A DNA stretch of 64,000 nt from a virus. Shown here in pieces: positions 3,200-61,496 of this stretch. The notes under the pieces are model-generated. The model did no database searches and had not been told where the DNA came from. It worked only from the letters and a program-made list of their open reading frames with translations. A program made the position numbers and the translations under genes. Location: positions 9,097 through 73,096 of IMG/VR virus record IMGVR_UViG_3300009149_000023; one strand, given 5' to 3'. Position 1 is the first letter of the stretch; each line of letters opens with the position of its first letter.

Positions 3200-3286
3200 T
3201 AGTAACCCTCCAAAGGAAAAAGCACAACATAAAAAACTTATGTGTGTATAACGTAGATATATATCTGAACTTGACTACCTGAAAGA

Positions 3287-4552: not shown

Positions 4553-5270
4553 CGGGATCCTCCTCAGGCTTATCTTCTATAAGTAATTGATCTGGATCTG
4601 GTTTATATGCACCTTTTAGCCATGACTCAGATGCATGCTCAATCCCTATTTCAGATAGTTTATTAACAACTATTTGAATATCAGGAGACATGTTTAAATT
4701 CTGCGTCAGGAACTTCCACTCACCTCTAATCAACTCAATAGGAATGTCAAGAAAACCATTATGGTATTTCTCATGTAGTGTTTTAACTAAAGGCACATAA
4801 CCTACTTTATCTGCAAAGTGTAAACCAATTACAATCTGCGCAACATCAAATGTTGAAAACTTTTCCTTTTCTTGCATTAATGTATCTGTAACCATACAAC
4901 ATACATTAAATAAAGAAATAGGATGGTGATGGATTTCGATACTGCATTCTTCGTTAGTTTCATGTGTTAGTACACATTCAGTTACATTCATCTCAGTTCT
5001 AAGGTATTTAGTCCAGTTTCTGTATTCCGGGGCAGTCCTGACCATCTTCTCAACAGCCTTAATAAAATATTTATAATCATTAACAGTGTAGAAGAAATTC
5101 TTTTTTAGTTCTAAGTTAAACTGACTTTCTTCGATCTTGAAAACAGGATTAGCAGTATCAGCTGCAATATCTTTAATTGATGGTTTGATTATTTCTGCAG
5201 TTTCTGTAACATCTGTGAAGTCTTCCTTTACTTCATCGTCTACGAAAGCTCTTTCTATTTTCTTTCCCAT
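4536..5270 (-). CDS. HNH-like (His-Me finger) domain protein
   Basis: CVLT...IEIHHHP...VGYVPLVKTLHEKYHNG pattern. Confidence 0.5.
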   Translation of the reverse strand: MGKKIERAFVDDEVKEDFTDVTETAEIIKPSIKDIAADTANPVFKIEESQFNLELKKNFFYTVNDYKYFIKAVEKMVRTAPEYRNWTKYLRTEMNVTECVLTHETNEECSIEIHHHPISLFNVCCMVTDTLMQEKEKFSTFDVAQIVIGLHFADKVGYVPLVKTLHEKYHNGFLDIPIELIRGEWKFLTQNLNMSPDIQIVVNKLSEIGIEHASESWLKGAYKPDPDQLLIEDKPEEDPDAGNK

Positions 5271-7616: not shown

Positions 7617-7643
7617 GTACTACATCAATTGTTGTGTTTTTAC
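7617..7643 (-). promoter_or_regulatory. Putative phage-specific promoter GTAAAAACACAACAATTGATGTAGTAC
   Basis: 26/27 identical to 23898..23924. Intergenic, and points into the leftward baseplate operon. Confidence 0.7.
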
Positions 7644-10583: not shown

Positions 10584-10633
10584 ATAAAAGAGACTCTGTA
10601 CGTAAATGCGTAAAAGGAGTCTCTTTTATTTTT
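10584..10633 (+). terminator. Intrinsic terminator-like hairpin
   Basis: ATAAAAGAGACTC ... GAGTCTCTTTTAT inverted repeat followed by a T run. Confidence 0.7.
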
Positions 10634-10655
10634 AGGTTGTTTTGCTCATATCGTT

Positions 10656-10671
10656 AAAACACAACAAGTGA
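10656..10671 (+). promoter_or_regulatory. Putative phage-specific promoter AAAACACAACAAGTGA
   Basis: Copy of the recurring motif, between a terminator and the neck/RNAP operon. Confidence 0.65.
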
Positions 10672-10701: not shown

Positions 10702-11268
10702 ATGAGTAAGAAAAGAGGAAAAAGTACAAAGGTCGCAAGTTGGAATTTTCTTGTAGCTAAAGATCGGATTAGAAAAGCTAAACCTTTAGTCTACAAACAA
10801 TACGAGAAAGAACTAGTTGAGATAGCAAATGTGACTCGAGCACTATTTGAAAATGCTATCCTCAAGGACATGTATACTAAGCTTGCAAAACAGTTCTTTG
10901 AGCAGATTAAAGGGACTAGAACTTTAGAGCAAGCAGGCGAAATTATTAATGAATTTCTTACACTAGCAAATGAGACTTCAAAATCATCAGCTTTATTCGA
11001 AATCGACGAACAAATCAAAGATGTCGAAAAACAAGTTACCTCAATGACAGACGAAGGCAAAACTCAGGAAGAAATTGATGCTTATGTTGAAGAGCACCTA
11101 ACTGCTCCTTTACAAAAGGTATATGAAGATTTAGAATCTGATGGTTTAGTTGAGGATGGCATATTAGCTGATGCTGAAAAAATACTTCAAGAAATTGAAG
11201 ACGAGGAAAACCAAGCCGAGGGGGAAATAGATAATGGTAACACTGACGAGTCTGTATCGCTACGCTAA
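10702..11268 (+). CDS. Hypothetical helical protein with acidic C-terminus
   Basis: Start reassigned to MSKKRG behind GGAGG. Confidence 0.7.
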   Translation: MSKKRGKSTKVASWNFLVAKDRIRKAKPLVYKQYEKELVEIANVTRALFENAILKDMYTKLAKQFFEQIKGTRTLEQAGEIINEFLTLANETSKSSALFEIDEQIKDVEKQVTSMTDEGKTQEEIDAYVEEHLTAPLQKVYEDLESDGLVEDGILADAEKILQEIEDEENQAEGEIDNGNTDESVSLR

Positions 11269-11953
11269 ACAAAAATTAGGACTACCTTATGTAGAATTTG
11301 AAAAGTCAGATGATGAGCTTTTCGAAATACTTAAAGAAACAACCATGCCTACTTTTAATCGTTACTTCCCTCATGTTAATAATATGGCACTTGACACACG
11401 TTTAGCTGAAAACTTAACAGATATTCCAAATGAGTATTGGTTAAGAGATCCAGACAATCAAGAAATATTTTCAGTTAGCAAAGTGTTAGATGTATATAAC
11501 ACGTTAATTGTTCATGGTTATCCTATTGATGTAGCATTCAGACAGTTTGATGATATTCCTAACTGGGCGTTAAGTGTAGATAGAGCTGAAACAGCTTATC
11601 TGTATTCACCTGCTAGAATGACTTTTTCTTTTATGCCTCCAAACAAAATCAGAGTAATGCCTTCTAATTCAATCTCGGGCGGAGTGTTTACTGTGCAATA
11701 TGAAAGAGGTCATAAAGACGATTTAAGCACACTTCAGAATCAATACGAGCATTATCTTAAAGAACTTTTTCTAGCTGATTGCAAACTTGAAATAGGTAAC
11801 ATAAGAAAGAAGTATCAGAACTTCACAACACCTTTTGGAGAGATTCCTCTGAATGGTGATGATCTTATTTCTCAAGGAACTGCAGAAAGAGAAAAGTTAT
11901 ATTCTGAGTTTGAAGAAAAAGCTCTGCCGAATATTCTAATCAAAGTCGGATAA
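11234..11953 (+). CDS. Neck / head-completion protein, T4 gp13-like
   Basis: KLGLPYVEFE..DDEL at the N-terminus; GNIRKKY...PFGEIPLNGDDL..G..E at the C-terminus. Confidence 0.75.
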   Translation: MVTLTSLYRYAKQKLGLPYVEFEKSDDELFEILKETTMPTFNRYFPHVNNMALDTRLAENLTDIPNEYWLRDPDNQEIFSVSKVLDVYNTLIVHGYPIDVAFRQFDDIPNWALSVDRAETAYLYSPARMTFSFMPPNKIRVMPSNSISGGVFTVQYERGHKDDLSTLQNQYEHYLKELFLADCKLEIGNIRKKYQNFTTPFGEIPLNGDDLISQGTAEREKLYSEFEEKALPNILIKVG

Positions 11954-11977: not shown

Positions 11978-12625
11978 ATGACGTTTGCATTTGATATTGA
12001 TGGAGTTATTGTTGATGTTAATAAAACAGTGCAGCAATATCTCAGAAAAACACATAACCTAACATACAAACAATTAGGTGTACAATATATCTGGCCTAAG
12101 CGTTTGTCTGAGTTTGAAGGTGTATTTGATGAGATGATTCGTCTTGATATAGAAAGGTTCATCTTTCAATCTTTCGATTATATACAAGACAGCATTTACC
12201 GTACAGCCATCCTAAGCTCAATGAAGACTTTAGGCAAACAAGGACATAAAATTTACATAATTACCAATAGGCCCATTTATACAAAAGATGTTACACGACA
12301 GTGCTTTCCTGAAGATGTAGCTGAACATATAGAAGATTTCTTATTCTTTGAAGAAGGCATAGATACAGAAGGTAATGAAGACCTTTTTAAAATTAAAAGA
12401 TGTCAATCGGTTAATGTTGACGTTTTAATAGATGATCGTGCTGATAATATAAAAGCTTTCGCAGAAACTACTAAGCATGGATTTTGGTTTGTCGATGAGA
12501 TTCCTGAGGCAGATAGAATCAATGAAATTACAAAGTTAAACTCTGTTATTGTGTGTGACAGCAGTAACTTAAAGAAAAAACTCAGAGAGGTAATATACAA
12601 TGTCAACTCGTCTGAAAGACACTGA
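11978..12625 (+). CDS. HAD-superfamily 5'(3')-nucleotidase-like hydrolase
   Basis: FDIDGV, IITNR, K and LIDDR HAD motifs I-IV. Confidence 0.85.
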   Translation: MTFAFDIDGVIVDVNKTVQQYLRKTHNLTYKQLGVQYIWPKRLSEFEGVFDEMIRLDIERFIFQSFDYIQDSIYRTAILSSMKTLGKQGHKIYIITNRPIYTKDVTRQCFPEDVAEHIEDFLFFEEGIDTEGNEDLFKIKRCQSVNVDVLIDDRADNIKAFAETTKHGFWFVDEIPEADRINEITKLNSVIVCDSSNLKKKLREVIYNVNSSERH

Positions 12626-15473
12626 AAAATTCTGTGCCAAACTGATCCCCGTTACCTCTCCTTCTGTATTTAGAAAATTAGGAGAAACTGTAACCTTTGA
12701 TGAGAAAGGTATTCTTTCTTATGAGATCTTTGGTACTAATGAGAATGAAAGAAGGGTAAGACACTCTTTCATTAATCTAAAGAATGTTCAAGTTCTTCAT
12801 CCTATTCTATACGATAAACTGAAAATTAATAGTAAGTTAAAAAACATTCTATATAATAAAGGTTCTTACATTATTAAGGGTGGCGAGCTTATTGCTGACC
12901 CAAATGGAGATACAGGCATATCATTTTTTAAGTCTATTGTAGGAAGATATAAGCCTGAATCAGCTGCTATTCAAAAAGTCTTTGATATTATTAAAGTATC
13001 ACCTTTTGCTTTCTTAAATAAGATTATTGTGATACCTCCTGCATTCAGAGAGACTGGAAAAGAATTAGTTTATAGAACCGTAACGGATCTCAATAAAGCA
13101 TATACTTCTTTAATTCGTGCAGCTAATGCAATTGCGGCTTCGGGAGACGCTGATGCTTACTCGGCTGAAATACAAAGGCTCATGGAAAATCTATATATTG
13201 CTATTAAAGCACAAATTGGTTCCAAAGACGGAATATCAAGATCAAATATTCAAGGAAAACGTTTAGACTTTTCAGGTCGCGCTGTTATTACAATGGACCT
13301 GTCCTTAAAAATAGATGAATGTATTCTTCCTTTAGTTATAGCATTAAAAATGTTTGAACCTTTCATAATTGCTGAGTTTAAGAAACAGCCCGGACGTAAG
13401 CCAGGCGACTATTTAATTTATGATATGTTACAAGATGTTTATGATAATCTTGATGCCAGTGACTATTATGAAGAAGTTAAGAAAGTAATAGATTCAATTG
13501 CCGCAACACGCCTTGTGCTGCTTAATCGTGCACCTTCTCTACATAAACTATCACTGCTTGCATTCAAACCGCGCATAACCTTAGATAAGGTTATCAAACT
13601 AAATCCTTTTATACTTGATGGATACAATGCTGACTTTGATGGTGACCAGATGGGTGTATACAGTCCTTTGACAAGACAAGGACAAGAGGAAGCTAAAAAA
13701 CTTCTACCTTCCAATAACTTATTTAATGTAGCTTCAAGAAAGATATCAACACAGCTTTCTGAAAACTTTGCGTTATACTTATATTATAGTACTGCATGGG
13801 AGTCAACTTCTGCACCCGCAAGTAAGTTAGACACTAATAAAAAGAATCTTGATTTCTTTAGACGTGTTACACTTAAAGGAGAAACAGCTACCGTAGGCAG
13901 ATGGTTATTAACTCTTGCTATTAGAGAAGCTGTCTTGGATGATAAGTATCCTATAATTAAGCAGCCTATAAATAAATCAATATTTAGTCAAATGTTATCT
14001 GATATCTTTATGAAGTATGGTAAGAATGCTTTGATAGGTGTGCTGTATAAAGTTAGAGATTTGACCATGGAATATGGTTCATTACTACCAGACGTACTTC
14101 CTGAAATAAAACTTAGTGACACTGCTAAGAAAGAGCTCCTTCCTAAAATAGAAGAATTAAAACATACTCCTGATGTATGGGATGATATTGTAAGTATAGT
14201 AAAAAGAGATATAAGAAATCATCAAAAGAACTTATACATTCTTCTTGAATCTAAAACAACTAAGCTTGACTGGAATAAGATTACACAGGCGTTAGTTGCT
14301 AAAGGCTATACTCAAACACTTTCAGGTGAGAACAAATTAATGACATCAAGTCAGCTCGATGGTTTAACACAAGAAGAACTTTTAGTGGATACTTCTAATG
14401 CTAGAAGAGGTATTGTTGACAGAGCTCTTATGACAGGTAAGCCTGGTTATTTAACCAGAAAGCTAATTTTTGCATTAGGCTCAACATTACTACATCCTAC
14501 ATTAAAAGATTGTGGAACTAGCAGAACACTAAAACTAAGAGTAAACAAGAATCATGTTAATAGCTTAGTAGGAAGATATGCTTTATTAAATGGTAAGCTA
14601 GTTTTACTTGAGAAAGCTGATGCTGAAAAATTAGTAGGAAGTACAATCAATGTAAGGTCTCCTGCCTACTGTAAGAGTAAACAAATATGCCATACTTGTT
14701 ATGGCATGCTAAGCAAATATGTGAACTCAAAGAACATAGGTATTATAGCTTCTCAAGCTATAGGCGAGTTAGGTACTCAGATGATTATGAGAACCTTCCA
14801 TGTAGATACTCTTGTTACTACAGCTAAAAAGACATTACCTACTATTAAAGAATTTAAGTTAACAGATGCAGGTTATGTAGCGATGCAGCCTGTGGTAATA
14901 CATTTAAAGAAAGACGATATAGAAGAAAGGTCTGACTTTAGTATAGTAACAAAAGCTATTACTGTCAACGATGCACGATACGATTTTGTATTTACTGTTT
15001 CCTTATTAGCTGTCGAAGACTCAAGAGAAACAGCAACTACACTAGAGTTAGCATTTCCTAAAGGAGCTATTCCTCTATTCGGAGGCTCAACAGGACATCT
15101 AAGGGATAAGATATCTGAAGTTGATGGTTTATTTGAATTAAGTCAGAAACTAAAAATTAGAGATGCCACAGCATTACTAGAAAGACTATTTGATGAATAT
15201 TATACGCTTGGTAAACTAGATCATGTACATTTTGAATTGTTTATAGGTGCTATGATGAGAAGTAAAGCTAAGCCTGAAATTCCTTTCAGATTATCAACTG
15301 ATACAGCTTACCAATTAGTGCCTATCTCAAAAGTAGCACTTTATGAAAGTCCTCAACTTGCTTTTATATTCCAAAGACAGTCAGATGCTATTATTGCAGG
15401 ACTATATCAAGATACTCTTGAAGAAGACCCAGAAGAACGAACCAAATCCGATTTAGAAGAATATTACTACTAG
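12600..15473 (+). CDS. rpoC: Phage multi-subunit RNA polymerase beta' subunit (unsplit, compact)
   Basis: GKRLDFSGRAVI, LNRAPSLH, NADFDGDQM (13626-13646), bridge helix ARRGIVDRALMTGKPGYLTRKL, DCGT/RSP..C..C..CYG zinc site, trigger loop QAIGELGTQMIMRTFH. Confidence 0.95.
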   Translation: MSTRLKDTEKFCAKLIPVTSPSVFRKLGETVTFDEKGILSYEIFGTNENERRVRHSFINLKNVQVLHPILYDKLKINSKLKNILYNKGSYIIKGGELIADPNGDTGISFFKSIVGRYKPESAAIQKVFDIIKVSPFAFLNKIIVIPPAFRETGKELVYRTVTDLNKAYTSLIRAANAIAASGDADAYSAEIQRLMENLYIAIKAQIGSKDGISRSNIQGKRLDFSGRAVITMDLSLKIDECILPLVIALKMFEPFIIAEFKKQPGRKPGDYLIYDMLQDVYDNLDASDYYEEVKKVIDSIAATRLVLLNRAPSLHKLSLLAFKPRITLDKVIKLNPFILDGYNADFDGDQMGVYSPLTRQGQEEAKKLLPSNNLFNVASRKISTQLSENFALYLYYSTAWESTSAPASKLDTNKKNLDFFRRVTLKGETATVGRWLLTLAIREAVLDDKYPIIKQPINKSIFSQMLSDIFMKYGKNALIGVLYKVRDLTMEYGSLLPDVLPEIKLSDTAKKELLPKIEELKHTPDVWDDIVSIVKRDIRNHQKNLYILLESKTTKLDWNKITQALVAKGYTQTLSGENKLMTSSQLDGLTQEELLVDTSNARRGIVDRALMTGKPGYLTRKLIFALGSTLLHPTLKDCGTSRTLKLRVNKNHVNSLVGRYALLNGKLVLLEKADAEKLVGSTINVRSPAYCKSKQICHTCYGMLSKYVNSKNIGIIASQAIGELGTQMIMRTFHVDTLVTTAKKTLPTIKEFKLTDAGYVAMQPVVIHLKKDDIEERSDFSIVTKAITVNDARYDFVFTVSLLAVEDSRETATTLELAFPKGAIPLFGGSTGHLRDKISEVDGLFELSQKLKIRDATALLERLFDEYYTLGKLDHVHFELFIGAMMRSKAKPEIPFRLSTDTAYQLVPISKVALYESPQLAFIFQRQSDAIIAGLYQDTLEEDPEERTKSDLEEYYY

Positions 15474-15482
15474 GAGGCAGCT

Positions 15483-18400
15483 TTGTATCTGCAAAGATTT
15501 AGATTATTTAGTTCACGAGACCCTAAACTCCGGTTTGAAGACGAAGGTTATAGAATATTTACTATAGTGGAGAATTCAACTTTTCCTAAACTATATCCTA
15601 AGTCAGGCCTCATGAAAGAAGATTGCCGTATTGTAGTAATCCCTAAAGTTCAGACAAAGTTTGGTTTAGTGCAGACTGCTAAATTAAAATCCGATTACTC
15701 CGCAACTAAATTAGTTTCGTATATTGATACACATACTATTAAAGAATCCGATAAGAATGCTTATATAGACTTAACACCTGTAATGGACTTTATGCGCCCA
15801 CGTTTAAAAAGGTTTGATTCAGATGTTGCCTACAGAACATTTATGGCTATGATGGATAACCTAGATACAGGTCCAGGTAAAAAAGTTTTACTTTATATGC
15901 TTGATATGACAAGGCCTGCAGCATTACGATTAACAGAGATGTATATAGCTGTATTGATTTATGCTATGATGCGAAGAAAGACTATGCCTTTCCATACAGT
16001 AATGTTTGGTGCTATTGGCGGTGGTAGTAAGTTTAGAAAGATTTATGAAGCTGACGATTCGTTAAACAGTTATCAAAAGATTATATCAACTATGAGGACT
16101 GAACTTTCACATATGAGTTCAGGTGCCATGTCTATTGCAATGGCGCAGCAAATTAGCGAAGACTTAGATGTGCCTACAGAAAAGGTAATTCCTATTATAA
16201 AGACTCTAATAAGTGATACACCCCCTGAGCAAAGATCTAGACTTATAAACCTCGCAAATGCTGATCCTAAGAAGATTAGGGAAATAGTAGTTAAGACTTC
16301 TCAGAAGATGACAGGGCATACTATCATTAAAGATCTACCTTTACAGCTAAAGAAAGTTGAAATGAAAACTTTGTCTGCTGATATGCCTAGTGCACAAATT
16401 ACACAAGTAACGGAGTTAACAAAAGCTAAGCAACCTGTTACTTCACTTGATATAAGTTCAGATCTTAATACACATTTAGTTATTCCTAGGATGACTTTAA
16501 ACGTTAATTCAGTATCATTAGCTCCTTTAGTTAATCATGTTACTGGTAAAGAGTTTTCAACTACGTTGGATGTTAGCCCTAATCCTAAGTTTTCAGGAAC
16601 TAACCTTATTAAAGTTAAGATTGTTGATTCCAAGACAAATAAAACACAGGACATCGAAGCAATTATCCCTAACTTAAAGTCTGATGGATCCTTTAAGATG
16701 TATGGACAAACATATACACTTAAGAAACAAATTGCGTCACTTCCTGTAGCAAAGTATAAAGAGAATGAGATTTCTATTGAAACATTACTGACTAACTTTA
16801 AGCTTGTTCGCAAAAAAGTAGGGCATAAAGTTTATATCAATTTCAGTAAGTATACTTCACTGCCTTTATTCTATTATTTAGCTGCTGTTATAGGACCAGA
16901 AGCTCTTTGTAAGAAACTAGACATCGAGGTCACTAAAACAGGAAAAGGTTTAACACTGCAACCTAAAGGTGGCTTAGGTTCAATAATTTCTCCAAAGATG
17001 CTAGAATCAACTGACAAAGACTACTTTAAAAAAGAGTTAGAGAAGATGATAGGTAACAGAGGATTAATTCACTACTTAGTAGAGAAGCTTCCAGAAAAAG
17101 CAATAGATCCTAGCACGCTTGATTTACTTAAAACATCTAAGATGCCAACTAATTTTATTGATATGATTATATTTGCAGCAACAAAACTGGTTAAGGATTT
17201 ACCGGAAGCTCCTAATGACCTACATCATAGAAGAATAAGATCAACAGAAGTAGTTAATAAGATATTCTTATCTGGCTTAGATAGAGCACTTAGTACTTAT
17301 AAACAGGATGTAGCTTCTGGTAGAGTAGATGCTGACATTGTAATTGATCCTAACTTTGTTATGAATACTTTGAGAGAAACGGGTGCTATAGACTTTGCGG
17401 AAAGTAAACCTAATCCTGTAGCAGAAATTGCTAGTAAGAATAAAGTAAATTATTCAGGCTATGCTACGTTTAGATCAGAGAATACTCCTATAGCTTTTAG
17501 AGATATTCATCCGTCACAGAAAGGATTACTTGATCCAATCGAAACAGCAAAAGATTCTTCAGTGGGAGATCAATTATATTTAACAGTATCTCCTAACATA
17601 ATGTCTAATAATAATCTTTTTGTTCCTACAAGCAACCCTGATTCAATGCTAGGCTATACAACTAGCTTAACTCCTTTTCTTGAATCTTCTGCTACCGCAC
17701 GTACAAACATGGGAACCTCTCATACAAAGCAAGCAGTACCTATAGTTGAGTCTGAAGCACCTTTTGTTATGAGTGGTATAGAAGGTGTCTATAAAGACAT
17801 TACTTCTGACAAGTTTATTACTAAGTCACCTGTAGACGGAAAAGTTACTTCTATTAAGAAAACTTATATGACTATTACAGACAAGGCTAAAAAGACACAT
17901 AAGATCAATCTTGTTAAACCGCATATTACTACAGGAACAGGTATAGCAATAAATAATGTACATGCACCCGTTGTAAGTGTAGGTGATAACGTAAAGGTAA
18001 AGGATATCCTAGCTGAAAACTTTACCTTCAAAGGCGGCATTCTTGCTATAGGAAAGAACTTGCTCTGTGCCTTTGCTTTATACAATTCTACTAATTACAT
18101 GGATGGTGTTATCATATCATCACATTTAAAAGAGAGCATGGCTGTTGAAGAGATTAGTAAAAAAGTAGTGTATGTAAATCCTGAAACAGATAGAATACTT
18201 CATTTTCATTCTAAGCTAGGACCTATTGGAAAGAATACAACGCTTATTAAGTATGATACTTCTGCTTTTAACATAGCAGCTTATGAAAGGTCAGTAGTTA
18301 CAGTAAAAGGAAATGCTATAGGATCATTAGAAGCTATTGTATTAAAAGCACCTAAGAAGTCCTTAGCAGATGAGCTGTTACGAAAACTTCCAGACATAGA

Positions 18401-19334
18401 TAAGAGTAATATAACTGTTATCATTAAGGATGACATAGATAAAACCGTCGAGCTTACATTTGAAGTTAAGTTACTGAATACTCTTAAAGTTGGAGACAAG
18501 TTTGGTAATAAGCACGGAAACAAAGGTGTTATTAATCACATCATTCCTGAAGAAGAAACTCCTTACATTGTAGAAGATGGAAGATGGTTAGATTGTGTAT
18601 TAAATCCTTTGGGACTGTTTGGTCGAACTAACTGGGGACAGTATAAAGAATTATTGGTGTCTGCTATATTGTATGAGTTTAACAAACAGTTTGTAGAGAT
18701 ATACAAAGTCAAAGGAAGGAAAGCAGCTTCTGAATATTTTGCTTCTTCTGCTGTTAAGTTAAACAAGATTAAAGATTATGACAAACTAATTCTTTCTAGG
18801 CTTAACAGGATGTCTGACAAACAGATGAAGGAATTAGTTACTAGCATTAAAAAGGAAGAGCAATTACTTCCTATACACATTCCTCCATTCAAGAGTGCTT
18901 CGTATAGTGATCTATTAGCATTAGGAGAACAGCTAAATGTAGTTAAGACTATTAGATGTCCTGAACTTGGTAAAGATATTAGAGCATTAGTAGGTTACAT
19001 GTATTTCCATAGGCTAGAGCATTTACCTGAGTACAAATTAAATGCTAGGTCTACAGGTGTTTATAGATACAGAACTAAGCAGCCTGTTGCTGGAAAGAAG
19101 ATGATGGGTGGACAAAGATTTGGAGAAATGGAAAATTGGTGTTTACTTTCACATGATTGTCCTACAATAATGCAAGAGTTTAAGACAGTGCAGTCTGATG
19201 ACTTTGATTATAAGAATAAAGTTATAACACAGATACTAAATGGTGAAGTTCCTGAAATGCCTGCAACTAAACAGCATACTGCAATTTACGATATGTTCAA
19301 AGCTTTAATGACCGGGTTGCATATAGATATTTAA
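15483..19334 (+). CDS. rpoB: Phage multi-subunit RNA polymerase beta subunit with N-terminal extension
   Basis: RDIHPSQ.G.LDPIET, RTNMG..H.KQAVP, GDKFGNKHGNKGVI, NPLG..GRTN.GQ, GYMYF..L.H, ARSTG.Y, QP..GK..GGQRFGEME. TTG start with GGAGG. Confidence 0.93.
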   Translation: MYLQRFRLFSSRDPKLRFEDEGYRIFTIVENSTFPKLYPKSGLMKEDCRIVVIPKVQTKFGLVQTAKLKSDYSATKLVSYIDTHTIKESDKNAYIDLTPVMDFMRPRLKRFDSDVAYRTFMAMMDNLDTGPGKKVLLYMLDMTRPAALRLTEMYIAVLIYAMMRRKTMPFHTVMFGAIGGGSKFRKIYEADDSLNSYQKIISTMRTELSHMSSGAMSIAMAQQISEDLDVPTEKVIPIIKTLISDTPPEQRSRLINLANADPKKIREIVVKTSQKMTGHTIIKDLPLQLKKVEMKTLSADMPSAQITQVTELTKAKQPVTSLDISSDLNTHLVIPRMTLNVNSVSLAPLVNHVTGKEFSTTLDVSPNPKFSGTNLIKVKIVDSKTNKTQDIEAIIPNLKSDGSFKMYGQTYTLKKQIASLPVAKYKENEISIETLLTNFKLVRKKVGHKVYINFSKYTSLPLFYYLAAVIGPEALCKKLDIEVTKTGKGLTLQPKGGLGSIISPKMLESTDKDYFKKELEKMIGNRGLIHYLVEKLPEKAIDPSTLDLLKTSKMPTNFIDMIIFAATKLVKDLPEAPNDLHHRRIRSTEVVNKIFLSGLDRALSTYKQDVASGRVDADIVIDPNFVMNTLRETGAIDFAESKPNPVAEIASKNKVNYSGYATFRSENTPIAFRDIHPSQKGLLDPIETAKDSSVGDQLYLTVSPNIMSNNNLFVPTSNPDSMLGYTTSLTPFLESSATARTNMGTSHTKQAVPIVESEAPFVMSGIEGVYKDITSDKFITKSPVDGKVTSIKKTYMTITDKAKKTHKINLVKPHITTGTGIAINNVHAPVVSVGDNVKVKDILAENFTFKGGILAIGKNLLCAFALYNSTNYMDGVIISSHLKESMAVEEISKKVVYVNPETDRILHFHSKLGPIGKNTTLIKYDTSAFNIAAYERSVVTVKGNAIGSLEAIVLKAPKKSLADELLRKLPDIDKSNITVIIKDDIDKTVELTFEVKLLNTLKVGDKFGNKHGNKGVINHIIPEEETPYIVEDGRWLDCVLNPLGLFGRTNWGQYKELLVSAILYEFNKQFVEIYKVKGRKAASEYFASSAVKLNKIKDYDKLILSRLNRMSDKQMKELVTSIKKEEQLLPIHIPPFKSASYSDLLALGEQLNVVKTIRCPELGKDIRALVGYMYFHRLEHLPEYKLNARSTGVYRYRTKQPVAGKKMMGGQRFGEMENWCLLSHDCPTIMQEFKTVQSDDFDYKNKVITQILNGEVPEMPATKQHTAIYDMFKALMTGLHIDI

Positions 19335-23897: not shown

Positions 23898-23924
23898 GTA
23901 AAAACACAACAATTGAAGTAGTAC
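23898..23924 (+). promoter_or_regulatory. Putative phage-specific promoter GTAAAAACACAACAATTGAAGTAGTAC
   Basis: Near-identical to 7617..7643; precedes the fibre operon. Confidence 0.7.
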
Positions 23925-23942
23925 ACTTTAGTACTACTTTTT
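23916..23942 (+). terminator. Hairpin AAGTAGTAC-N6-GTACTACTT plus T run
   Basis: Perfect 9-bp inverted repeat overlapping the 3' end of the promoter motif. Confidence 0.5.
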
Positions 23943-33679: not shown

Positions 33680-33694
33680 AAACACAACAATCGA
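33680..33694 (+). promoter_or_regulatory. Putative phage-specific promoter AAACACAACAATCGA
   Basis: Intergenic copy of the motif. Confidence 0.65.
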
Positions 33695-37062: not shown

Positions 37063-39048
37063 ATGGGATTTGATACACAATTAAAAAACTTAAAAGATAC
37101 TTTATTCGGAGCTTCAGTTGTTTCAGTTGATGATGCTATAGAGCAGGTAACTAAGGAGATCATCACTAAACAAAAGTTTAAGACTACTACCATTGTTGAG
37201 CTTCTTAGAAATTTAACAAAGTTAGAAGGCAAAGAGGAAACCGATCAGCCTGGAACTTCTTTTGTTGAAATGCTTAAGAAAGGTGTCTCAAGAAAGAAGT
37301 TTGCTCCAGAGACAGATAGGTCAGAAAGATATAGACAAATTGATTATATCTATGATAACAATCCTCAGGTTGCGCAGGCTCTTAAAGTGTTTGTGGATAA
37401 CTGCTTGTCTCCTGACGTGTTTACTAAAAACACTTTAGACGTAATTTGTACATTACTTCAGTCAGAGGATACATCAGAATTTGAACAAGCTAAACGATAT
37501 ATGCTTTCTATTCAGAAACATTATAAGATGGAAGAGCATGTAACGGAGATAACAGCCTTGTTCTTAAAGTATGGTGATGTGTTTGTAGAAGTTATTAATC
37601 CTAAAGAAGAATTAATGTACTACGGTGTACTGCAAGAAAAAGCAGCATCCGCTGATGACCATGTTAGACATTATTCTTTAGCCGGTCCGCCTTTACATGA
37701 ATTCACACAATCGTCTACTACACTACTAGAACAAAATATGCCTAAGATAACGGGCGGTGATGTTCTTATGGAAGCAGACACTAGTGAAAGAAGTGCTGGC
37801 GAAGGAACTGGTAAAAAAGATACATCTGGTTTAAACACTGATGGAAAAGAAAAAGACGTTAAGAAAAGTAAATGGGAACTTAACGATCTTAGGATTAAAG
37901 TACACAACCCCAACAACGTTATAGTGTTGCAGGAACAAGGTATTATCTTAGGCTACTTAGTTTTAGAAGCTAAGGACACCGGAGCAAGTTTTGCTGGTGG
38001 TGGAATGTCTGGTGGTGTAAGTGAAACAGGGGCTGTAATAGATGAAATAGTTAGAAACATTCTTCAAAAAGCAGGAGACCTTTTACAGCGTCCCGGATTA
38101 AAGAATGATTCTGAAGCTATTAACATACTATACAATTTATTAAAAAGAGAGAAGTTAAAGTTAGGTGAGATGGTAACTAGGTTAGTTATGCCTAACCGCT
38201 TACAGCACTTCAAACTTCTTCCTTCTAAGTTTGACCCTTATGGAGAGTCTATATTCTATCCTGTGCTGTTTACAGCAAAACTTCTCACTACATTAAGAGG
38301 AGCCTTAGTTATTTATAGACTTTCAAGAGCGCCGGAAAGGCGCGTGTTCAATATTGAGACAGGTCTATCGAGAGATGCTGCTGCTATAATTGAACAGGTT
38401 AAGAATGAAATGGATAGACGAGAAGTTACTATCGACGATTTAGGATCGATAGATACAATCTCTTCTATGACATCTACCTTTGAATCTATTTACTTGCCTA
38501 TGACTAATGGTAAGAAGTTCATAGAACTTGAAACTATGCAAGGTGGACAACTTGCTGACAAAGTAGAAGATATTAACTTTGTACTAAAAGAAGTCCTTTC
38601 AGGATTAGGAATCCCGCCAGCACTATTAGGATACGAGGCAGACATTGAAAGCAAATCGACTTTATCGCAACAAAATATTAAGTTTGCGAGAAGCATTATT
38701 CAGATACAAAAACTACTATCGCAGTACTTCACTAATCTATACTTGATGACTGTTGAGATAACAGAACCAGAAATGATCAATCTAGTTACTATGACAACTG
38801 CCGTAGCTCTAAAACCTCCTAGAAGTTTAATGCTTGCAGGCTTAACAGAAATGGCTGAAGAATTAGACAAGCTTGTTGATACTTTTAAGAAGCTTGAATA
38901 TCCTGTTGAAAGGATTATTAGTTATTACTTCGGTGATATTATGGAGCCTGAGATACTTGAACAGTATAGAGTGCAAGCTAGAGCTGAAAAGCAGATACTA
39001 GCTGCTGGAGACGAAGAAGATGAAGGCGGCGAAGGTGGAGGCTTTTGA
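37063..39048 (+). CDS. Portal protein, T4 gp20-like
   Basis: LVIYRLSRAPERRVFNIETG, IETMQGG-like segment, L..LGIP, FARSI..IQ. Confidence 0.9.
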   Translation: MGFDTQLKNLKDTLFGASVVSVDDAIEQVTKEIITKQKFKTTTIVELLRNLTKLEGKEETDQPGTSFVEMLKKGVSRKKFAPETDRSERYRQIDYIYDNNPQVAQALKVFVDNCLSPDVFTKNTLDVICTLLQSEDTSEFEQAKRYMLSIQKHYKMEEHVTEITALFLKYGDVFVEVINPKEELMYYGVLQEKAASADDHVRHYSLAGPPLHEFTQSSTTLLEQNMPKITGGDVLMEADTSERSAGEGTGKKDTSGLNTDGKEKDVKKSKWELNDLRIKVHNPNNVIVLQEQGIILGYLVLEAKDTGASFAGGGMSGGVSETGAVIDEIVRNILQKAGDLLQRPGLKNDSEAINILYNLLKREKLKLGEMVTRLVMPNRLQHFKLLPSKFDPYGESIFYPVLFTAKLLTTLRGALVIYRLSRAPERRVFNIETGLSRDAAAIIEQVKNEMDRREVTIDDLGSIDTISSMTSTFESIYLPMTNGKKFIELETMQGGQLADKVEDINFVLKEVLSGLGIPPALLGYEADIESKSTLSQQNIKFARSIIQIQKLLSQYFTNLYLMTVEITEPEMINLVTMTTAVALKPPRSLMLAGLTEMAEELDKLVDTFKKLEYPVERIISYYFGDIMEPEILEQYRVQARAEKQILAAGDEEDEGGEGGGF

Positions 39049-39626
39049 TGAATGACGCTTTCAACAAGTTCTTAACCTTACTTGAACAAGCGGAGGATAG
39101 TTATCCTTTCTTAGACGATGTAACTGCGCCAGAGCCGCTAACAGAAGCTCCTAAAGCTGAAGAAAAGAAAAGTAAGGAAAAAAAGAAGAAAGAAGCTCCT
39201 GATCCTTTTGCAGCAGGAGACGAAAAGAAAGAAGACGCACCTGCCGGGGATGAAAAGAAAGAAGATGCTCCTGCAGATGACAAGGATCCTTTTGGTGGCG
39301 GAGATGCAGCCGAAGGTGGTGAAGAAAAAAGTGATGAAGATGTATTCAAGAGTTGGATAATCATTCAGACTACCATTAAAGCTTTAAAGAACTACCTTGT
39401 ATTACTTGATCTATTACTTAGACGCGACTTTGAAAAGAAGTTCTTTGAATTTCAGAAGAAGGTTGCTTCTTTTGATGATACTTTACAGATTCTAGTAAAG
39501 TATTGGAAGAACATCAAAGAACGCGATAAAATTATTAAACTTGTGCAGCATACGTCTATTGCACTGAAGAAAGATTTCATTAATCTCTTAAAGGAAGCTA
39601 AACATGATGAACAACACAAATCGTAA
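39045..39626 (+). CDS. Hypothetical head-cluster protein with acidic low-complexity linker
   Basis: Lies between portal and protease; N-terminal FLTLLEQAE. Confidence 0.6.
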   Translation: MMNDAFNKFLTLLEQAEDSYPFLDDVTAPEPLTEAPKAEEKKSKEKKKKEAPDPFAAGDEKKEDAPAGDEKKEDAPADDKDPFGGGDAAEGGEEKSDEDVFKSWIIIQTTIKALKNYLVLLDLLLRRDFEKKFFEFQKKVASFDDTLQILVKYWKNIKERDKIIKLVQHTSIALKKDFINLLKEAKHDEQHKS

Positions 39627-40287
39627 CGGTCTTTACATACTATCAGAAGAACCTTTGTTTGAGTCAGAGATTGTCATTGACAAGAGCAGAGCTGACAACA
39701 CAGTAATAGCGAGAGCAGTTATGCAGATTACTGATGTTATGAATGCTAACCGCAGAATTTACCCTAGAGAGCTTTTAGAAAGGCATCTTGAATTAGCACA
39801 ACCTATGATTGCTAAAAGAAGATTATTCGGAGAAGCAGATCATCCACCAGCAGATGCACCTATGCATAGAATACTTTCAATTCGCTTTAAAGACAGTTGT
39901 CACTGCTTTAATAAAATGTGGATTGATCAAGAAAGAGGTAGAGGTGTTGTAAGAGCTATAATCGAAACTACTCCTACTACTTGGGGTTACACTTTAGCCG
40001 CAATGTTAAGAAAAGGAATGGGTGTAGGCTTTTCTCTAAGATCAACAGGTCGCGTACAGATGAGAGGGGATGTTGCTTATGTGGCTGAGCCTTTCAAATT
40101 CGTGACGTATGACGCTGTTATTAATCCTTCCAATGAAGCCGCTTTCGTAGAAGAAATACTAACAGAAGCAAGCAATTGTGTAAAAGAAAGATATTTAACA
40201 GAAGGCAAAGAATTAACGTCTTTAATTGAGTCTTATATTGAAGCTGAAGTTAGAGATTGTGCATCCAGAATGCTTAGGTTCCTGTAA
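39604..40287 (+). CDS. Prohead core protease, T4 gp21-like
   Basis: NANRRIYP, GEADHP, T..G, GFSLRSTG, YDAVINPS...A. Confidence 0.9.
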   Translation: MMNNTNRNGLYILSEEPLFESEIVIDKSRADNTVIARAVMQITDVMNANRRIYPRELLERHLELAQPMIAKRRLFGEADHPPADAPMHRILSIRFKDSCHCFNKMWIDQERGRGVVRAIIETTPTTWGYTLAAMLRKGMGVGFSLRSTGRVQMRGDVAYVAEPFKFVTYDAVINPSNEAAFVEEILTEASNCVKERYLTEGKELTSLIESYIEAEVRDCASRMLRFL

Positions 40288-40811: not shown

Positions 40812-40826
40812 AAACACACTAATTGA
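40812..40826 (+). promoter_or_regulatory. Variant promoter motif AAACACACTAATTGA
   Basis: Two mismatches to AAACACAACAATTGA; intergenic, ahead of the MCP transcript. Confidence 0.5.
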
Positions 40827-41476: not shown

Positions 41477-42910
41477 ATGAGACAGATTCTTTTAGAGACC
41501 AAACAACGCCTAGAAGCTAATCATGGCGTGAACATGGTTACAGAAATGCAGCGTATCCTCGCTGAACCAGTACTTTTTGAGGAATATATTGACGGCTTGT
41601 CACAGGGCATGAATGATGCCGATGCTGAGCAGTTTAAAGTTCTTGCAGAGAATACTGGTGCTAACCTGATGGAAAACTCCATCTTCGGTTATAATCCTTA
41701 TGCAGTTTTGGTTATGCCTCTTCTTAGGAAGTTCTGGCCACGCCTTTCTGTTAAGGAAGCTGTAACTGTATCCCCAATGAGCAGCCCAAGCGTTGTTCGT
41801 TATTTCATTAAGCCTATGGCTAAAACCTATCTGGGAACAGAAGTCGAACTTCCAGATTTCAACAACAACGTATCACTCGGACCACAAGTTCCTGTGACTC
41901 CAGCTGTTGTCGTTCCTTCCCAGACTGATCTTCTGAATCTTCTTGGATTGACTTCCGCAATGGGTTCAATCTCTAGAACTCTCAGAGTAACTGCAGTATC
42001 CGATGGAACTAACACTGAACCATGCAGCATCGAGACAGACATCGATGGTAACTTCTCTTCAGCTGTTACTTTCCAGGCTACTTCAGTAACAGACGTCATC
42101 CAGGGTCATGTTGATTTTAAGAATGGTATAATCAGCCTTAGCTCAGTTGGTGGAGTCATCACTGGCGCTACTCTGTATGCTATCGTCTCTCTGGAACAGA
42201 ATACTATTAATACAAACATCGAATTCAGAACTGAAAAGATTTTGTTCGAAGCTCTGACACGAAAGCTTAGTGCTCGTTGGTCAGTTGAGTTTGAACAGGA
42301 TACTAAAGCTCTGTTCAATCTCGATGCACAGGCCGAGCTTATCAGCATCATGAGCAATCAGATTGCTGTTGAAATCGACAAAGAAATCATCACCGAACTT
42401 CTGACTACAGTACAATTCCTGCACAACACAGCTATCGATACTTTTGATAAGACTGTTCCTGCTGGTTTTGCTTTAGGTCCGAAGGCTTGGTACGAAAACA
42501 TTCTTGTTAAGATGAATGCTCTTAGCCAGACTGTATACAAAGATACAAACATCGCACCTGCGAACATTATTCTTTGTAACCCAAGCGAAGCTGCTATCCT
42601 TGAAACAACTAACAGGTATGTATATGTAAGTGATGGCTTCTCCGGAAGCGAGCACACATATCGCGTAGGCACACTGGAATCAGGTAAGTGGAGAGTTATC
42701 GTAACTCCTATCGTTCCTGAAGGCAAAATGCTTATGCTCATCAAACCTGCAGAAGAAAGAGCAGCTGTGTATTTCTACTGCCCATACATTCCAGTAACTA
42801 TTTATCCGTTCCCACTAGGAACCATGCCAAGCATGACACTTATGACTCGCTATGCGAAAGCAGCAGTGCGTCCTAAGGGTATTGCTTTGCTCAATGTTGT
42901 TGCTACATAA
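41477..42910 (+). CDS. Major capsid protein, T4 gp23-like (HK97 fold)
   Basis: V.PM.SP, TRKLSARWSVEFEQD.KA...LDAQAEL...MS.QI..EIDKEII, FYCPYIP, MTRYA. Strong codon bias and a terminator downstream. Confidence 0.93.
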   Translation: MRQILLETKQRLEANHGVNMVTEMQRILAEPVLFEEYIDGLSQGMNDADAEQFKVLAENTGANLMENSIFGYNPYAVLVMPLLRKFWPRLSVKEAVTVSPMSSPSVVRYFIKPMAKTYLGTEVELPDFNNNVSLGPQVPVTPAVVVPSQTDLLNLLGLTSAMGSISRTLRVTAVSDGTNTEPCSIETDIDGNFSSAVTFQATSVTDVIQGHVDFKNGIISLSSVGGVITGATLYAIVSLEQNTINTNIEFRTEKILFEALTRKLSARWSVEFEQDTKALFNLDAQAELISIMSNQIAVEIDKEIITELLTTVQFLHNTAIDTFDKTVPAGFALGPKAWYENILVKMNALSQTVYKDTNIAPANIILCNPSEAAILETTNRYVYVSDGFSGSEHTYRVGTLESGKWRVIVTPIVPEGKMLMLIKPAEERAAVYFYCPYIPVTIYPFPLGTMPSMTLMTRYAKAAVRPKGIALLNVVAT

Positions 42911-43914: not shown

Positions 43915-43930
43915 AAACACAACAATTAGA
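43915..43930 (+). promoter_or_regulatory. Putative phage-specific promoter AAACACAACAATTAGA
   Basis: Intergenic copy of the motif. Confidence 0.65.
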
Positions 43931-56017: not shown

Positions 56018-56034
56018 AAAACACAAAAATTAGA
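56018..56034 (+). promoter_or_regulatory. Putative phage-specific promoter AAAACACAAAAATTAGA
   Basis: One mismatch to the 43915 copy; intergenic. Confidence 0.55.
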
Positions 56035-56069
56035 TATATATCTACTATACTGCTAACAGGAGAGTATCT

Positions 56070-61433: not shown

Positions 61434-61441
61434 TTTCTGGG

Positions 61442-61476
61442 ATCCAGGACATAACAAATACATCTGGAAATCTTAA
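61442..61476 (+). repeat. 35-bp direct repeat, copy 1 (promoter-like)
   Basis: ATCCAGGACATAACAAATACATCTGGAAATCTTAA, identical at 62700..62734. Confidence 0.95.
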
Positions 61477-61496
61477 GTAAGGAGAATAAGAAAACA

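What the first reader, a model, noticed from the sequence alone, without database searches (positions are those of the whole stretch)
12600..19334. Unsplit two-gene beta'-beta RNA polymerase in a phage with T4-like virion genes
Seen: complete catalytic motif sets in two single ORFs, in the order beta' then beta (the reverse of rpoBC). Beta' is only 957 aa and lacks the N-terminal Cys4 zinc finger (GILSYEIFG runs directly into ERR..HSFINL). No alpha, omega or sigma gene is adjacent. Known: T4-like phages use host RNAP with gp55, whereas phiKZ/AR9 RNAPs are split into several genes. From memory, a metagenomic Caudovirales lineage (mReC) with deep-branching beta/beta' has been reported but not characterised biochemically. 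Inference: a minimal multi-subunit RNAP of that type, here with candidate cognate promoters.
Basis: partly seen in the sequence, partly recalled or inferred. Interest (0 to 1): 0.8.

Follow-up and report, generated by a model that had tools for sequence, protein, structure and literature searches.

The report
Unsplit virion-type phage RNA polymerase genes
Two adjacent genes on a fragment of a large uncultured phage encode the catalytic core of the phage's own bacterial-type RNA polymerase, and comparisons indicate it is a two-gene version of the multi-piece polymerase that some giant phages carry inside their particles.

Summary
Window 12600-15473 encodes a 957-aa beta' and 15483-19334 a 1283-aa beta, in that order. 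Both carry the catalytic motifs, and beta' has no N-terminal Cys4 zinc finger. The window is 64 kb of a 73-kb IMG/VR phage fragment (about 25% complete) with Gp23-type capsid, T4-type portal and terminase genes, as described for the published mReC phages.

1. Four of four larger relatives carry two such gene pairs. Class A has a zinc-finger-less beta' and a beta with a ~390-aa N-terminal extension. Class B has a zinc finger and a ~1000-aa beta. The window's pair is class A.
2. Class A matches the virion RNA polymerase of giant phage AR9/PBS1, and class B matches its non-virion polymerase. Beta' N-terminal scores split 15 of 15 and 28 of 28. A tree, an AU test (p 0.027) and a fold match of the beta extension agree.
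3. A 15-nt motif sits before this operon and before structural gene blocks. It suggests late co-expression, not a cognate promoter.

Packaging into virions and enzyme activity are untested. Most likely reading: an unsplit virion-type polymerase.

The parts
10589..10636 (+). Inverted repeat (AGAGACTC...GAGTCTCT) followed by a T-run; terminator-like element closing the upstream unit
   Evidence: Read from the sequence. Not listed by the terminator scan, whose loop limit is 3-8 nt.
10657..10671 (+). Copy of the 15-nt promoter-like motif (AAACACAACAAGTGA, 1 mismatch) heading the operon that ends in beta' and beta
   Evidence: 6 matches at <=2 mismatches against 0.51 expected; 0 of 100 shuffles reach 6. 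All are intergenic and co-oriented with the next gene.
10702..11268 (+). First ORF of the operon, function unknown. The likely start is the ATG at 10702, after a GGAGG box; the ORF caller gives 10684.
   Evidence: (no convincing family).
11234..11953 (+). Homolog of a virion structural protein
   Evidence: phrog_18911 'virion structural protein', E 2.4e-23. tblastn to AR9 87530-88183, E 1e-12, annotated there as virion structural protein next to the head maturation protease.
11978..12625 (+). HAD-family phosphatase, 5'-deoxynucleotidase-like; overlaps the beta' start by 26 nt
   Evidence: PF00702 E 4.5e-05 and PF06941 E 5e-04, both below the curated cut-offs; phrog_2643 E 4.5e-09.
12600..15473 (+). 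RNAP beta' subunit, 957 aa, class A (virion-RNAP-like), unsplit
12708..12779 (+). Junction where the Cys4 zinc-binding domain is missing (aa 37-60)
   Evidence: The junction aligns almost without gaps (two single-residue gaps) to the AR9 virion RNAP beta' N-terminal protein.
13626..13646 (+). NADFDGD catalytic Mg-binding motif of beta'
14505..14699 (+). Second zinc site retained (C638, C691, C697, C700)
   Evidence: these four Cys are invariant in the 24-sequence alignment.
15472..15477 (+). AGGAGG ribosome-binding site for beta, overlapping the beta' stop codon
15483..19334 (+). RNAP beta subunit, 1283 aa, class A, TTG start
15483..16661 (+). N-terminal extension of beta (aa 1-393): an alpha/beta domain, a helical bundle and a linker. 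Absent from bacterial and class B beta.
18504..19139 (+). Beta active-site region (GNKHGNKGV to GGQRFGEMENW)
7625..7639 (-). Motif copy (exact) heading the leftward operon 7603 to 1403
23902..23916 (+). Motif copy (exact) before 23970 and the large fibre/decoration-like proteins; followed directly by a hairpin at 23915-23940
33680..33694 (+). Motif copy (1 mismatch) before the block that leads to the portal gene
40812..40826 (+). Motif copy (2 mismatches) before the block that holds the major capsid gene. The next ORF more likely starts at 40846.
43915..43929 (+). Motif copy (2 mismatches) before 43958
56019..56033 (+). Weaker motif copy (3 mismatches) before 56070, a protein with a P2 gpI-like tail domain
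37063..39048 (+). Portal protein (context)
   Evidence: PF07230 E 2.2e-30; AR9 homolog E 1.7e-32.
39604..40287 (+). Prohead protease (context)
   Evidence: PF03420 E 3e-10 and PF20034 E 5e-10; AR9 head maturation protease region, E 1.5e-12.
41477..42910 (+). Major capsid protein, Gp23 type (context)
   Evidence: PF07068 E 8.8e-43; AR9 major head protein, E 6e-35.
47147..48817 (+). Large terminase (context)
   Evidence: PF03237 E 2.4e-11; phrog_2 E 6.9e-32.

Best explanation
The two ORFs encode the catalytic core (beta' and beta) of a phage multisubunit RNA polymerase of the deep-branching phage lineage published as mReC. Within that lineage there are two paralogous enzymes. This one is 'class A', defined by a beta' without the N-terminal zinc finger and a beta with a ~390-aa N-terminal extension. 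Class A is the counterpart, here unsplit, of the virion RNA polymerase (vRNAP) of AR9/PBS1- and phiKZ-type giant phages. Class B is the counterpart of their non-virion polymerase. Shown here: the identity as a complete beta'/beta pair, class A membership, and the specific similarity to vRNAP subunits. Inferred by analogy: the enzyme works without alpha, omega or a sigma70-type factor; it is made late together with virion proteins, from a promoter motif shared with structural gene blocks; it is packaged and injected to transcribe early genes. On this reading the 15-nt motif would be read by another polymerase (a class B enzyme elsewhere in the genome) rather than by this enzyme.
For: Complete domain and motif sets. 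PDB matches to bacterial beta' and beta at E 2e-49 and 9e-59, against 4e-18 for archaeal and 4e-14 for the AR9 non-virion beta-C chain. Four of four larger related records (97-255 kb) carry two beta' loci, and each second set is beta' ~904-919 aa followed by beta ~1016-1035 aa. Trees: the beta' tree has class A (17 rows including the window) at 97* and A+B at 100*, apart from bacteria; the beta tree, rooted on an archaeal and a eukaryotic sequence, has bacteria at 100*, A+B at 100* and class A at 82. Beta' N-terminal parts: 15 of 15 class A rows score higher against the AR9 vRNAP beta'-N ORF, and 28 of 28 class B rows score higher against the non-virion one. The window scores 83.2 bits (E 5e-22) against 55.8 bits (E 5e-13), with the zinc-finger-less junction aligned. 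In the site-heterogeneous tree, AR9 vRNAP beta'-N falls in a set with the 15 class A rows (96*). Forcing the two AR9 paralogs together costs 16.6 lnL, AU p 0.027. Beta N-half: window aa 1-640 hits one place per jumbo-phage record, which in AR9/PBS1 is the gene annotated 'virion RNAP subunit' (E 4e-6), and it gives 0 PDB hits at E<=10. The class B N-half instead hits the AR9 non-virion beta-N chain 7s00_c (E 1.2e-13) and a different AR9 locus. The model of the extension (pLDDT 80.6) has as its best viral fold match a 921-aa PBS1 protein (E 2.1e-6, prob 1.00). Gene 80 of PBS1, the vRNAP beta-N gene, has that length. hhalign gives prob 96.1%, E 3.1e-9. In 201phi2-1 the window's beta'-N hits gp275 and its beta N-half hits gp273/274. 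Both are annotated as identified by mass spectrometry, lie next to a virion protein, and stand in the order beta' then beta. The operon also holds a homolog of an AR9 virion structural protein. The motif before the operon recurs before structural blocks. In relative G001 the class A operon likewise carries the motif class that marks the capsid-gene strand block.
Against: Virion packaging, activity and promoter use are untested. No class B pair exists in the 73-kb record, which is only ~25% complete; if the phage has one polymerase, the division of labour fails. The window is a long branch (1.41 in the beta tree), and class A support there is only 82 SH-aLRT. The C-terminal halves of beta' and beta do not discriminate virion from non-virion. 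Genome-scale tblastn of the window's beta' found only the AR9 non-virion beta'-N, and in Staphylococcus jumbo phages its best place is annotated 'non-viral RNA polymerase beta-prime'. The fold match has TMq of only 0.38 and rmsd 22.9. That the BFVD entry is PBS1 gene 80 rests on equal length and collinear sequence matches, not on an accession link. The AU p-value is modest, and the grouping was proposed after BLAST results. The virion/non-virion labels come from two reference phages, as annotated in their records.
Confidence: 0.6

Rival explanations
1. This is the phage's working, non-packaged RNA polymerase, possibly its only one. It is made after infection and itself reads the AAACACAACAATTGA promoters before structural genes and before its own operon (positive autoregulation).
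For: The motif is strongly over-represented, intergenic and co-oriented. Sigma70-like sites are not enriched around the operon (47 found against 62.7 expected). No second RNAP is present in the 73-kb record. Some best hits of the window's beta' are to non-virion subunits.
Against: Class A groups with, and scores higher against, virion RNAP subunits. Four of four larger relatives carry a second, non-virion-like pair. An enzyme cannot make its own first transcript from its own promoter. The record is only ~25% complete.
Confidence: 0.28
2. The pair needs host subunits (alpha, omega or sigma) to work, or is a decaying relic with no transcription role.
For: No accessory subunit was identified. The sequences are very divergent: 42% identity to the nearest relative and about 30% to the rest.
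Against: All catalytic motifs and the second zinc site are intact over 2240 codons without stops. The family is conserved across hundreds of viral contigs. Per the sections of PMC9209446 read, the AR9 non-virion enzyme lacks alpha and omega and nothing compensates for them. No alpha or Sigma70_r4 match in four larger relatives.
Confidence: 0.07
3. Recently captured bacterial rpoB/rpoC, or a chimeric assembly of phage and host DNA.
For: Bacterial enzymes are the best solved-structure matches. One other 'viral' contig (L082) does carry a bacterial-type pair.
Against: Only 26-30% identity to bacteria of many phyla, with no preferred phylum. The pair lies outside the bacterial clade in both trees. 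The gene order is reversed. G+C is uniform at 0.33-0.39 across the window. The genes sit inside a phage operon between virion genes.
Confidence: 0.01

Closest known systems
mReC phage RNAPs (Weinheimer and Aylward 2020, PMC7481178; abstract, Results part 1 of 2, and passages read)
   Same: Metagenomic tailed-phage contigs from IMG/VR that encode both beta and beta' in a clade apart from cellular enzymes, with capsid PF07068 and terminase PF03237. The window meets all of these.
   Different: The text I read does not mention two paralogous sets, a virion enzyme, the missing zinc finger or the beta extension; a term search found 0 occurrences of 'copies', 'two RNAP', 'virion', 'sigma' and 'split'. 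According to PMC7598289, the mReC authors left jumbo-phage RNAPs out of their tree. I could not compare with their sequence set because supplements are closed.
Virion RNAP of AR9/PBS1 and of phiKZ-type phages (201phi2-1 gp275 and gp273/274)
   Same: Beta' N-terminus without a zinc finger, with the same junction. Beta with ~400-470 residues before the first conserved beta block (window aa 402, PBS1 about aa 472). Best sequence, profile and fold matches. Order beta' then beta. Neighbouring virion protein genes.
   Different: The jumbo-phage enzyme is cut into at least five polypeptides (PMC7598289), with introns and homing endonucleases in AR9. Here there are two ORFs. Identity is only ~26-31% over the matched parts. 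Presence in the virion is not shown here.
Non-virion RNAP of AR9 (PDB 7S00 and related entries) and phiKZ
   Same: Phage beta/beta' homologs that work without alpha and omega (PMC9209446). This is the likely counterpart of the class B pair found in relatives.
   Different: The window's beta N-half finds no solved chain at all, and its beta' N-part scores lower against this enzyme. No homolog of the AR9 promoter-specificity subunit gp226 was searched for.
Bacterial RNAP core (alpha2-beta-beta'-omega)
   Same: Same domain order and catalytic motifs. Closest solved structures.
   Different: Reversed gene order, no Cys4 zinc finger, short beta' (957 aa against ~1150-1650 aa in the bacterial loci), extra beta N-terminal module, and no alpha or sigma in the record.
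Other phage unsplit or fused enzymes (Rhizobium phage RHph_TM30 beta'; fused beta-beta' ORFs)
   Same: Unsplit bacterial-type subunits in phages.
   Different: RHph_TM30 beta' keeps the zinc finger. In the beta' tree it and the fused forms lie on the bacterial side, outside class A+B; in the beta tree the fused forms are sister to class A+B.

Membership tests
mReC (multimeric-RNAP-encoding Caudovirales) | One viral contig encodes both beta and beta', detectable with profiles built from cellular enzymes | tested here: met
   Pfam Rpb1 and Rpb2 domains above their cut-offs in adjacent ORFs. The record is an IMG/VR virus record.
mReC (multimeric-RNAP-encoding Caudovirales) | The RNAP falls in a deep clade apart from Bacteria, Archaea/Eukarya and giant viruses | tested here: inconclusive
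   It lies apart from 26 and 14 bacterial rows and from one archaeal and one eukaryotic beta.
mReC (multimeric-RNAP-encoding Caudovirales) | Tailed-phage hallmark genes, capsid PF07068 and terminase PF03237 | tested here: met
   PF07068 E 8.8e-43, PF03237 E 2.4e-11, and portal PF07230 E 2.2e-30.
Jumbo-phage virion RNAP (vRNAP) | Subunits closer to vRNAP than to non-virion RNAP paralogs | tested here: met
   Beta'-N 83.2 against 55.8 bits. Class A 15 of 15. Tree set at 96* and AU p 0.027. The beta N-half hits only the vRNAP gene in AR9/PBS1. The C-terminal halves do not discriminate, and some genome-scale best hits go to non-virion genes.
Jumbo-phage virion RNAP (vRNAP) | Physically present in the virion and injected | not testable with these tools
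   Only context: a virion-protein homolog in the same operon and a promoter motif shared with structural blocks.
Jumbo-phage virion RNAP (vRNAP) | Core split into at least five polypeptides | tested here: not met
   Two ORFs cover everything. Three of 7 class A relatives split beta' once.
Jumbo-phage virion RNAP (vRNAP) | Transcribes early genes from conserved AT-rich promoters | not testable with these tools
   No such motif class was found in the 73-kb record. Relative G001 has a 14-nt AT-rich motif at 17 strict sites.
Bacterial RNAP core | Beta' N-terminal Cys4 zinc-binding domain | tested here: not met
   Only C12 in the first 120 aa. Ten of 24 aligned phage beta' lack it.
Bacterial RNAP core | Alpha dimer and a sigma factor encoded or used | tested here: not met
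   No PF01000, PF04542 or PF04545 match in the record, nor PF01000 or PF04545 in four relatives. Use of host subunits cannot be excluded.

The most novel reading that the evidence does not exclude
The window holds a natural two-gene version of the giant-phage virion RNA polymerase. The duplication into a packaged (class A) and a non-packaged (class B) enzyme happened once, before the split between AR9/phiKZ-type phages and the mReC phages with Gp23-type capsids, so the two groups inherited rather than convergently acquired their polymerases. The ~390-aa beta extension shared with the AR9/PBS1 virion subunit would then be the module that adapts the enzyme to packaging, ejection or sigma-free early-promoter recognition.
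Probability: 0.45. Interest if true: 0.8.

Novelty: new variant of a known kind. Interest (0 to 1): 0.64.

Why it matters
No solved chain matched the N-terminal half of this beta at E<=10. To my knowledge (recalled, not checked by a search) no giant-phage virion RNAP structure is solved, and the known ones are cut into five or more pieces with introns. A two-ORF natural version would be a much simpler object to express, assay and image. The class A/class B pairing with virion and non-virion enzymes bears on two open points. First, the mReC analysis left jumbo-phage RNAPs out (PMC7598289). Second, a 2025 phylogenomic study suggested convergent acquisition in Chimalliviridae and Straboviridae (PMC11835377, passages read). 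If the mapping holds, a two-polymerase infection programme is older and wider than the nucleus-forming phages. It also changes how the conserved intergenic motifs should be read: as a late signal for another enzyme, not as this enzyme's own promoter.

Tried and rejected
A single-protein locus search found only one relative. The word-indexed search with beta returned 20 proteins other than the query's own record: 18 bacterial-type beta, one unclassified 1790-aa protein, and one archaeal and one eukaryotic homolog. No phage relatives appeared, because its words come from the unique N-terminus. Both gaps were filled with alignment-based searches.

The first fold of the beta extension, with 8 sequences, was poor (pLDDT 55.6) and gave no PDB match. 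The 52-sequence fold was good but still had no PDB match at E<=0.001; the top rows were F1-ATPase subunits at TM 0.12-0.22, which I regard as noise. A P-loop reading of GAIGGGSK was dropped because the stretch is not conserved in relatives.

The window's 15-nt motif is not conserved in relative G001 (4 scattered 2-mismatch hits). I considered a link to the AR9 late promoter AACA-N6-TA (PMC9209446). The window motif contains AACA-N6-TT, but four shared bases are too few, so it stays a lead only. Sigma70-type promoters are not enriched near the operon.

My regular expression for the first beta block failed on class B, PBS1, AR9 and one class A row. Those positions therefore come from BLAST alignments. 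I looked for the promoter of the class B operon in G001 and found none within 1.5 kb.

Literature: six searches and passages of PMC7481178, PMC12619734, PMC7824862, PMC9123017, PMC11835377, PMC13282480, PMC7598289, PMC9209446 and PMC13573597 turned up no statement that mReC-type phages carry two RNAP classes matching virion and non-virion enzymes. Subscription journals and all supplements were out of reach, so this is not proof that the point is unpublished. No complex prediction, read mapping or protein-atlas search was run.
Full report
WHAT IS THERE. The window is bases 9097-73096 of a linear IMG/VR virus record of 73,096 bp, estimated about 25% complete. G+C is even at 0.33-0.39. ORFs lie at exactly the stated places: 12600-15473 (957 aa, ATG) and 15483-19334 (1283 aa, TTG).

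Pfam finds Rpb1 domains 2 and 5 in the first ORF, and Rpb2 domains 3, 6 and 7 in the second, all above their curated cut-offs. The catalytic NADFDGD, the second zinc site, the trigger-loop helix and the beta active-site blocks are intact. The N-terminal Cys4 zinc finger of beta' is absent, because the first 120 residues hold a single Cys.

The TTG start of beta is supported in two ways. An AGGAGG box overlaps the beta' stop, 5 nt upstream of the TTG. Homologs also align from residue 1. The capsid (PF07068), portal (PF07230), terminase (PF03237) and prohead protease (PF03420, PF20034) genes lie downstream.

NOT A CAPTURED BACTERIAL OPERON. The best solved-structure matches are bacterial: beta' at E 2e-49 and beta at E 9e-59, against 4e-18 for archaeal enzymes. 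Identity to bacteria of many phyla is a uniform 26-30% over the conserved core.

A FastTree of 90 beta' rows puts the window in a phage clade at 100*, apart from 26 bacterial rows. An IQ-TREE quick tree of 54 beta rows, rooted on one archaeal and one eukaryotic sequence, gives bacteria at 100* and the phage groups as their sister at 90. My coverage filter dropped L016 and six bacterial rows from that beta tree.

A KNOWN KIND. Weinheimer and Aylward (PMC7481178; abstract and Results part 1 of 2 read) described 97 such contigs, called mReC. They carry capsid PF07068 and terminase PF03237, and the window meets those features. An alignment-based scan of IMG/VR matched 588 stretches, 529 of them relatives, and kept 80 loci.

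Of the 81 loci examined:
- 33 have separate beta' then beta ORFs;
- 43 have a single fused beta-beta' ORF;
- 5 are something else.

No isolated phage covers 80% of either protein. The nearest protein is 42% identical and the rest are about 30%.

TWO CLASSES. In an alignment of 24 phage beta', 10 (including the window) lack the zinc finger and 14 keep it. All 8 loci whose beta is long (1283-1408 aa) pair it with a zinc-finger-less beta'. Their beta share an N-terminal extension of 393-468 aa before the first conserved beta block.

That first block starts at:
- aa 402-477 in class A (7 of 8 by pattern);
- about aa 85-95 in the short beta (BLAST alignments);
- aa 114-185 in 6 of 7 bacterial beta.

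A profile of the extension, searched against 1.84 billion representatives, found 147 proteins. In 31 of the 31 that are longer than 1200 aa the match starts at residue 1-26, and no unrelated family appeared.

Four of four larger related records (97, 194, 245 and 255 kb) hold two beta' loci (the record behind a fifth locus, L029, was not held and so not searched). In each, the second set is a ~904-919-aa beta' followed by a ~1016-1035-aa beta. I call the sets class A (the window's) and class B. Class A is monophyletic at 97* in the beta' tree and 82 in the beta tree. Class B is at 91 and 100*, and A+B at 100* in both. The window and P0003 form the deepest and longest class A branch. 'Unsplit' is not universal, since 3 of 7 class A relatives encode the last ~230-250 aa of beta' as a separate ORF.

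LINK TO GIANT-PHAGE VIRION POLYMERASES. The extension folded well with 52 sequences (pLDDT 80.6). It has no PDB match at E<=0.001. In the viral structure library its top hit is a 921-aa PBS1 protein (E 2.1e-6, prob 1.00, TMq 0.38). PBS1 gene 80 is 921 aa long and annotated as RNA polymerase beta subunit. The same gene in AR9 is annotated 'N-terminus; virion RNAP subunit' and lies beside a virion protein gene. Equating the library entry with gene 80 rests on length and on collinear sequence matches.

Sequence comparisons agree with the fold match:
- hhalign of the extension profile against gene 80 gives prob 96.1%, E 3.1e-9.
- BLASTP of the window's beta against gene 80 gives collinear matches, aa 401-449 with 471-522 and aa 508-659 with 766-914 (E 3e-12).
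- The window's beta aa 1-640 hits one place in each of 20 jumbo-phage records, and no solved chain at E<=10.
- Reciprocally, the class B beta N-half hits the AR9 non-virion beta-N chain 7s00_c (E 1.2e-13) and a different AR9 locus.

For beta' N-terminal parts, 15 of 15 class A rows score higher against the AR9 virion ORF, and 28 of 28 class B rows score higher against the non-virion ORF (the AR9 labels were confirmed). For the window the scores are 83.2 bits (E 5e-22) against 55.8 bits (E 5e-13), and the zinc-finger-less junction aligns almost without gaps (two single-residue gaps).

In an LG+C20 tree of 65 rows, AR9 virion beta'-N sits with the 15 class A rows (96*) and the non-virion one sits nearest class B. 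Three rows without the catalytic motif were dropped from this tree. Forcing the two AR9 paralogs together costs 16.6 lnL, AU p 0.027.

A second reference agrees. In 201phi2-1 the window's beta'-N hits gp275 (E 2e-5), and its beta N-half hits gp273/274 weakly (E 0.9). Both are annotated as identified by mass spectrometry, stand in the order beta' then beta, and lie next to a virion protein. Class B hits another locus in that phage, and in Erwinia phage RAY it hits a gene annotated nvRNAP.

EVIDENCE AGAINST.
- The C-terminal halves of both subunits do not discriminate virion from non-virion.
- Genome-scale tblastn of the window's beta' reported only the AR9 non-virion gene. Its best place in Staphylococcus jumbo phages is annotated non-viral RNAP.
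- The window is a long branch.
- The AU p-value is modest, and I named the grouping after seeing BLAST results.
- The record holds no class B pair, which a 25% fragment cannot settle.
- Nothing here shows packaging or activity.

CONTEXT AND REGULATION. A 15-nt motif, AAACACAACAATTGA, occurs 6 times at <=2 mismatches, against 0.51 expected, and 0 of 100 shuffles reach 6. The pattern was derived from these same data. A seventh copy has 3 mismatches. All seven are intergenic and co-oriented, 20-55 nt before a GGAGG box.

One copy heads the operon that runs unknown ORF, virion-protein homolog, HAD phosphatase, beta', beta. That copy sits just after a terminator-like hairpin. The other copies head the leftward operon and the blocks that hold the fibre-like proteins, the portal, the capsid protein and tail parts.

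Relative G001 has two motif classes. One, TTAGAACAAAATA, lies mostly before plus-strand blocks including the capsid block, and also before its class A operon. The other is an AT-rich CTATATATATTAAT at 17 strict sites before short minus-strand genes. The two often stand back to back.

In phiKZ-type phages, conserved AT-rich early promoters are attributed to the virion enzyme (PMC7598289, passages). By analogy, class A genes look like late genes, and the window's motif is more likely read by another polymerase. This step is inference.

No sigma70 region 2 or 4, and no alpha, was found in the record. No region 4 or alpha was found in four relatives. Omega and AR9 gp226 were not searched.

The phage also shares capsid, portal, protease, terminase and two further genes with AR9 at E 1e-12 to 6e-35 (terminase only 4e-7). 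The AR9 capsid protein itself passes the Gp23 threshold. 'T4-like' therefore does not separate this phage from AR9-type phages.

VERDICT. The genes are real and complete, and they belong to the published mReC kind. The added value is their assignment to a class that matches giant-phage virion polymerases, in two ORFs instead of five or more. I put 0.6 on that reading including likely packaging, 0.28 on a non-packaged enzyme that reads the motif itself, and little on the remaining rivals. In six literature searches and the passages read I found no report of the two-class mapping. Supplements and subscription journals were not visible.

Noticed in passing
IMG/VR loci L002, L031, L033-L035, L038-L045, L047-L053 and others (43 of 81 loci): A large second group of viral contigs encodes beta and beta' fused in one ORF of about 1800-3600 aa, in the bacterial order. 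They form their own clade (99* in the beta tree). Some isolates are annotated the same way (Erwinia phage PhiEaH1 'RpoBC', Klebsiella phage FBKp24).
   Followed up: partly
Record G001 (loci L168-L180), whole 254,910 bp: Two strongly conserved intergenic motif classes, TTAGAACAAAATA and CTATATATATTAAT..TGA. They are often back to back at divergent junctions, with opposite strand preferences (24 plus / 12 minus against 4 plus / 26 minus), as expected for two promoter classes read by two polymerases.
   Followed up: partly
window 11978-12625 (+): A HAD-family, 5'-deoxynucleotidase-like gene overlaps the beta' start. Rhizobium phage RHph_TM30 also has a 5'-deoxynucleotidase about 5.4 kb upstream of its beta' gene. 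This could point to manipulation of the nucleotide pool or to modified DNA.
   Followed up: no
window 24401-26539, 27205-29769, 29785-32937 (+): Three large neighbouring proteins share weak matches to the same head-decoration and tail-fibre families (phrog_2647, phrog_11338, phrog_18671). They look like paralogous fibre or decoration proteins.
   Followed up: no
window about 61440-61480 and 62697-62735: A ~33-nt direct repeat (TCCAGGACATAACAAATACATCTGGAAATCTTAA) containing an inverted repeat lies after two successive genes. It may be a shared terminator or regulatory hairpin.
   Followed up: no
window 4151-5270 (-) and 59471-60757 (+): ORFs 4536-5270 and 4151-4552 have homologs just upstream of the class A pair in five relatives, and two paralogs in AR9 (one beside virion protein genes and a virion RNAP subunit). 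ORF 59471-60757, which has weak AAA ATPase matches, is 43% identical to the ORF directly after class A beta in L008. These are candidate accessory genes of the class A enzyme.
   Followed up: partly
L008 beta' (1390 aa), L046 beta' (1274 aa); proteins P0015, P0031, P0043: Some class A beta' are much longer. Related proteins carry LAGLIDADG (PF14528) or intein-type (PF14890) domains, which suggests inteins or homing endonucleases inside phage RNAP genes, as in AR9.
   Followed up: no
L082 (IMG/VR contig, 63,973 bp): This 'viral' contig carries a bacterial-type rpoB-rpoC pair that nests inside bacteria in both trees (next to a Bacillota row in the beta tree). It is probably host DNA or a misclassified contig.
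   Followed up: no
window 3257-3268 and 56034-56045: The palindrome AGATATATATCT occurs in two intergenic regions. At 56034 it follows the weak copy of the 15-nt motif directly.
   Followed up: no
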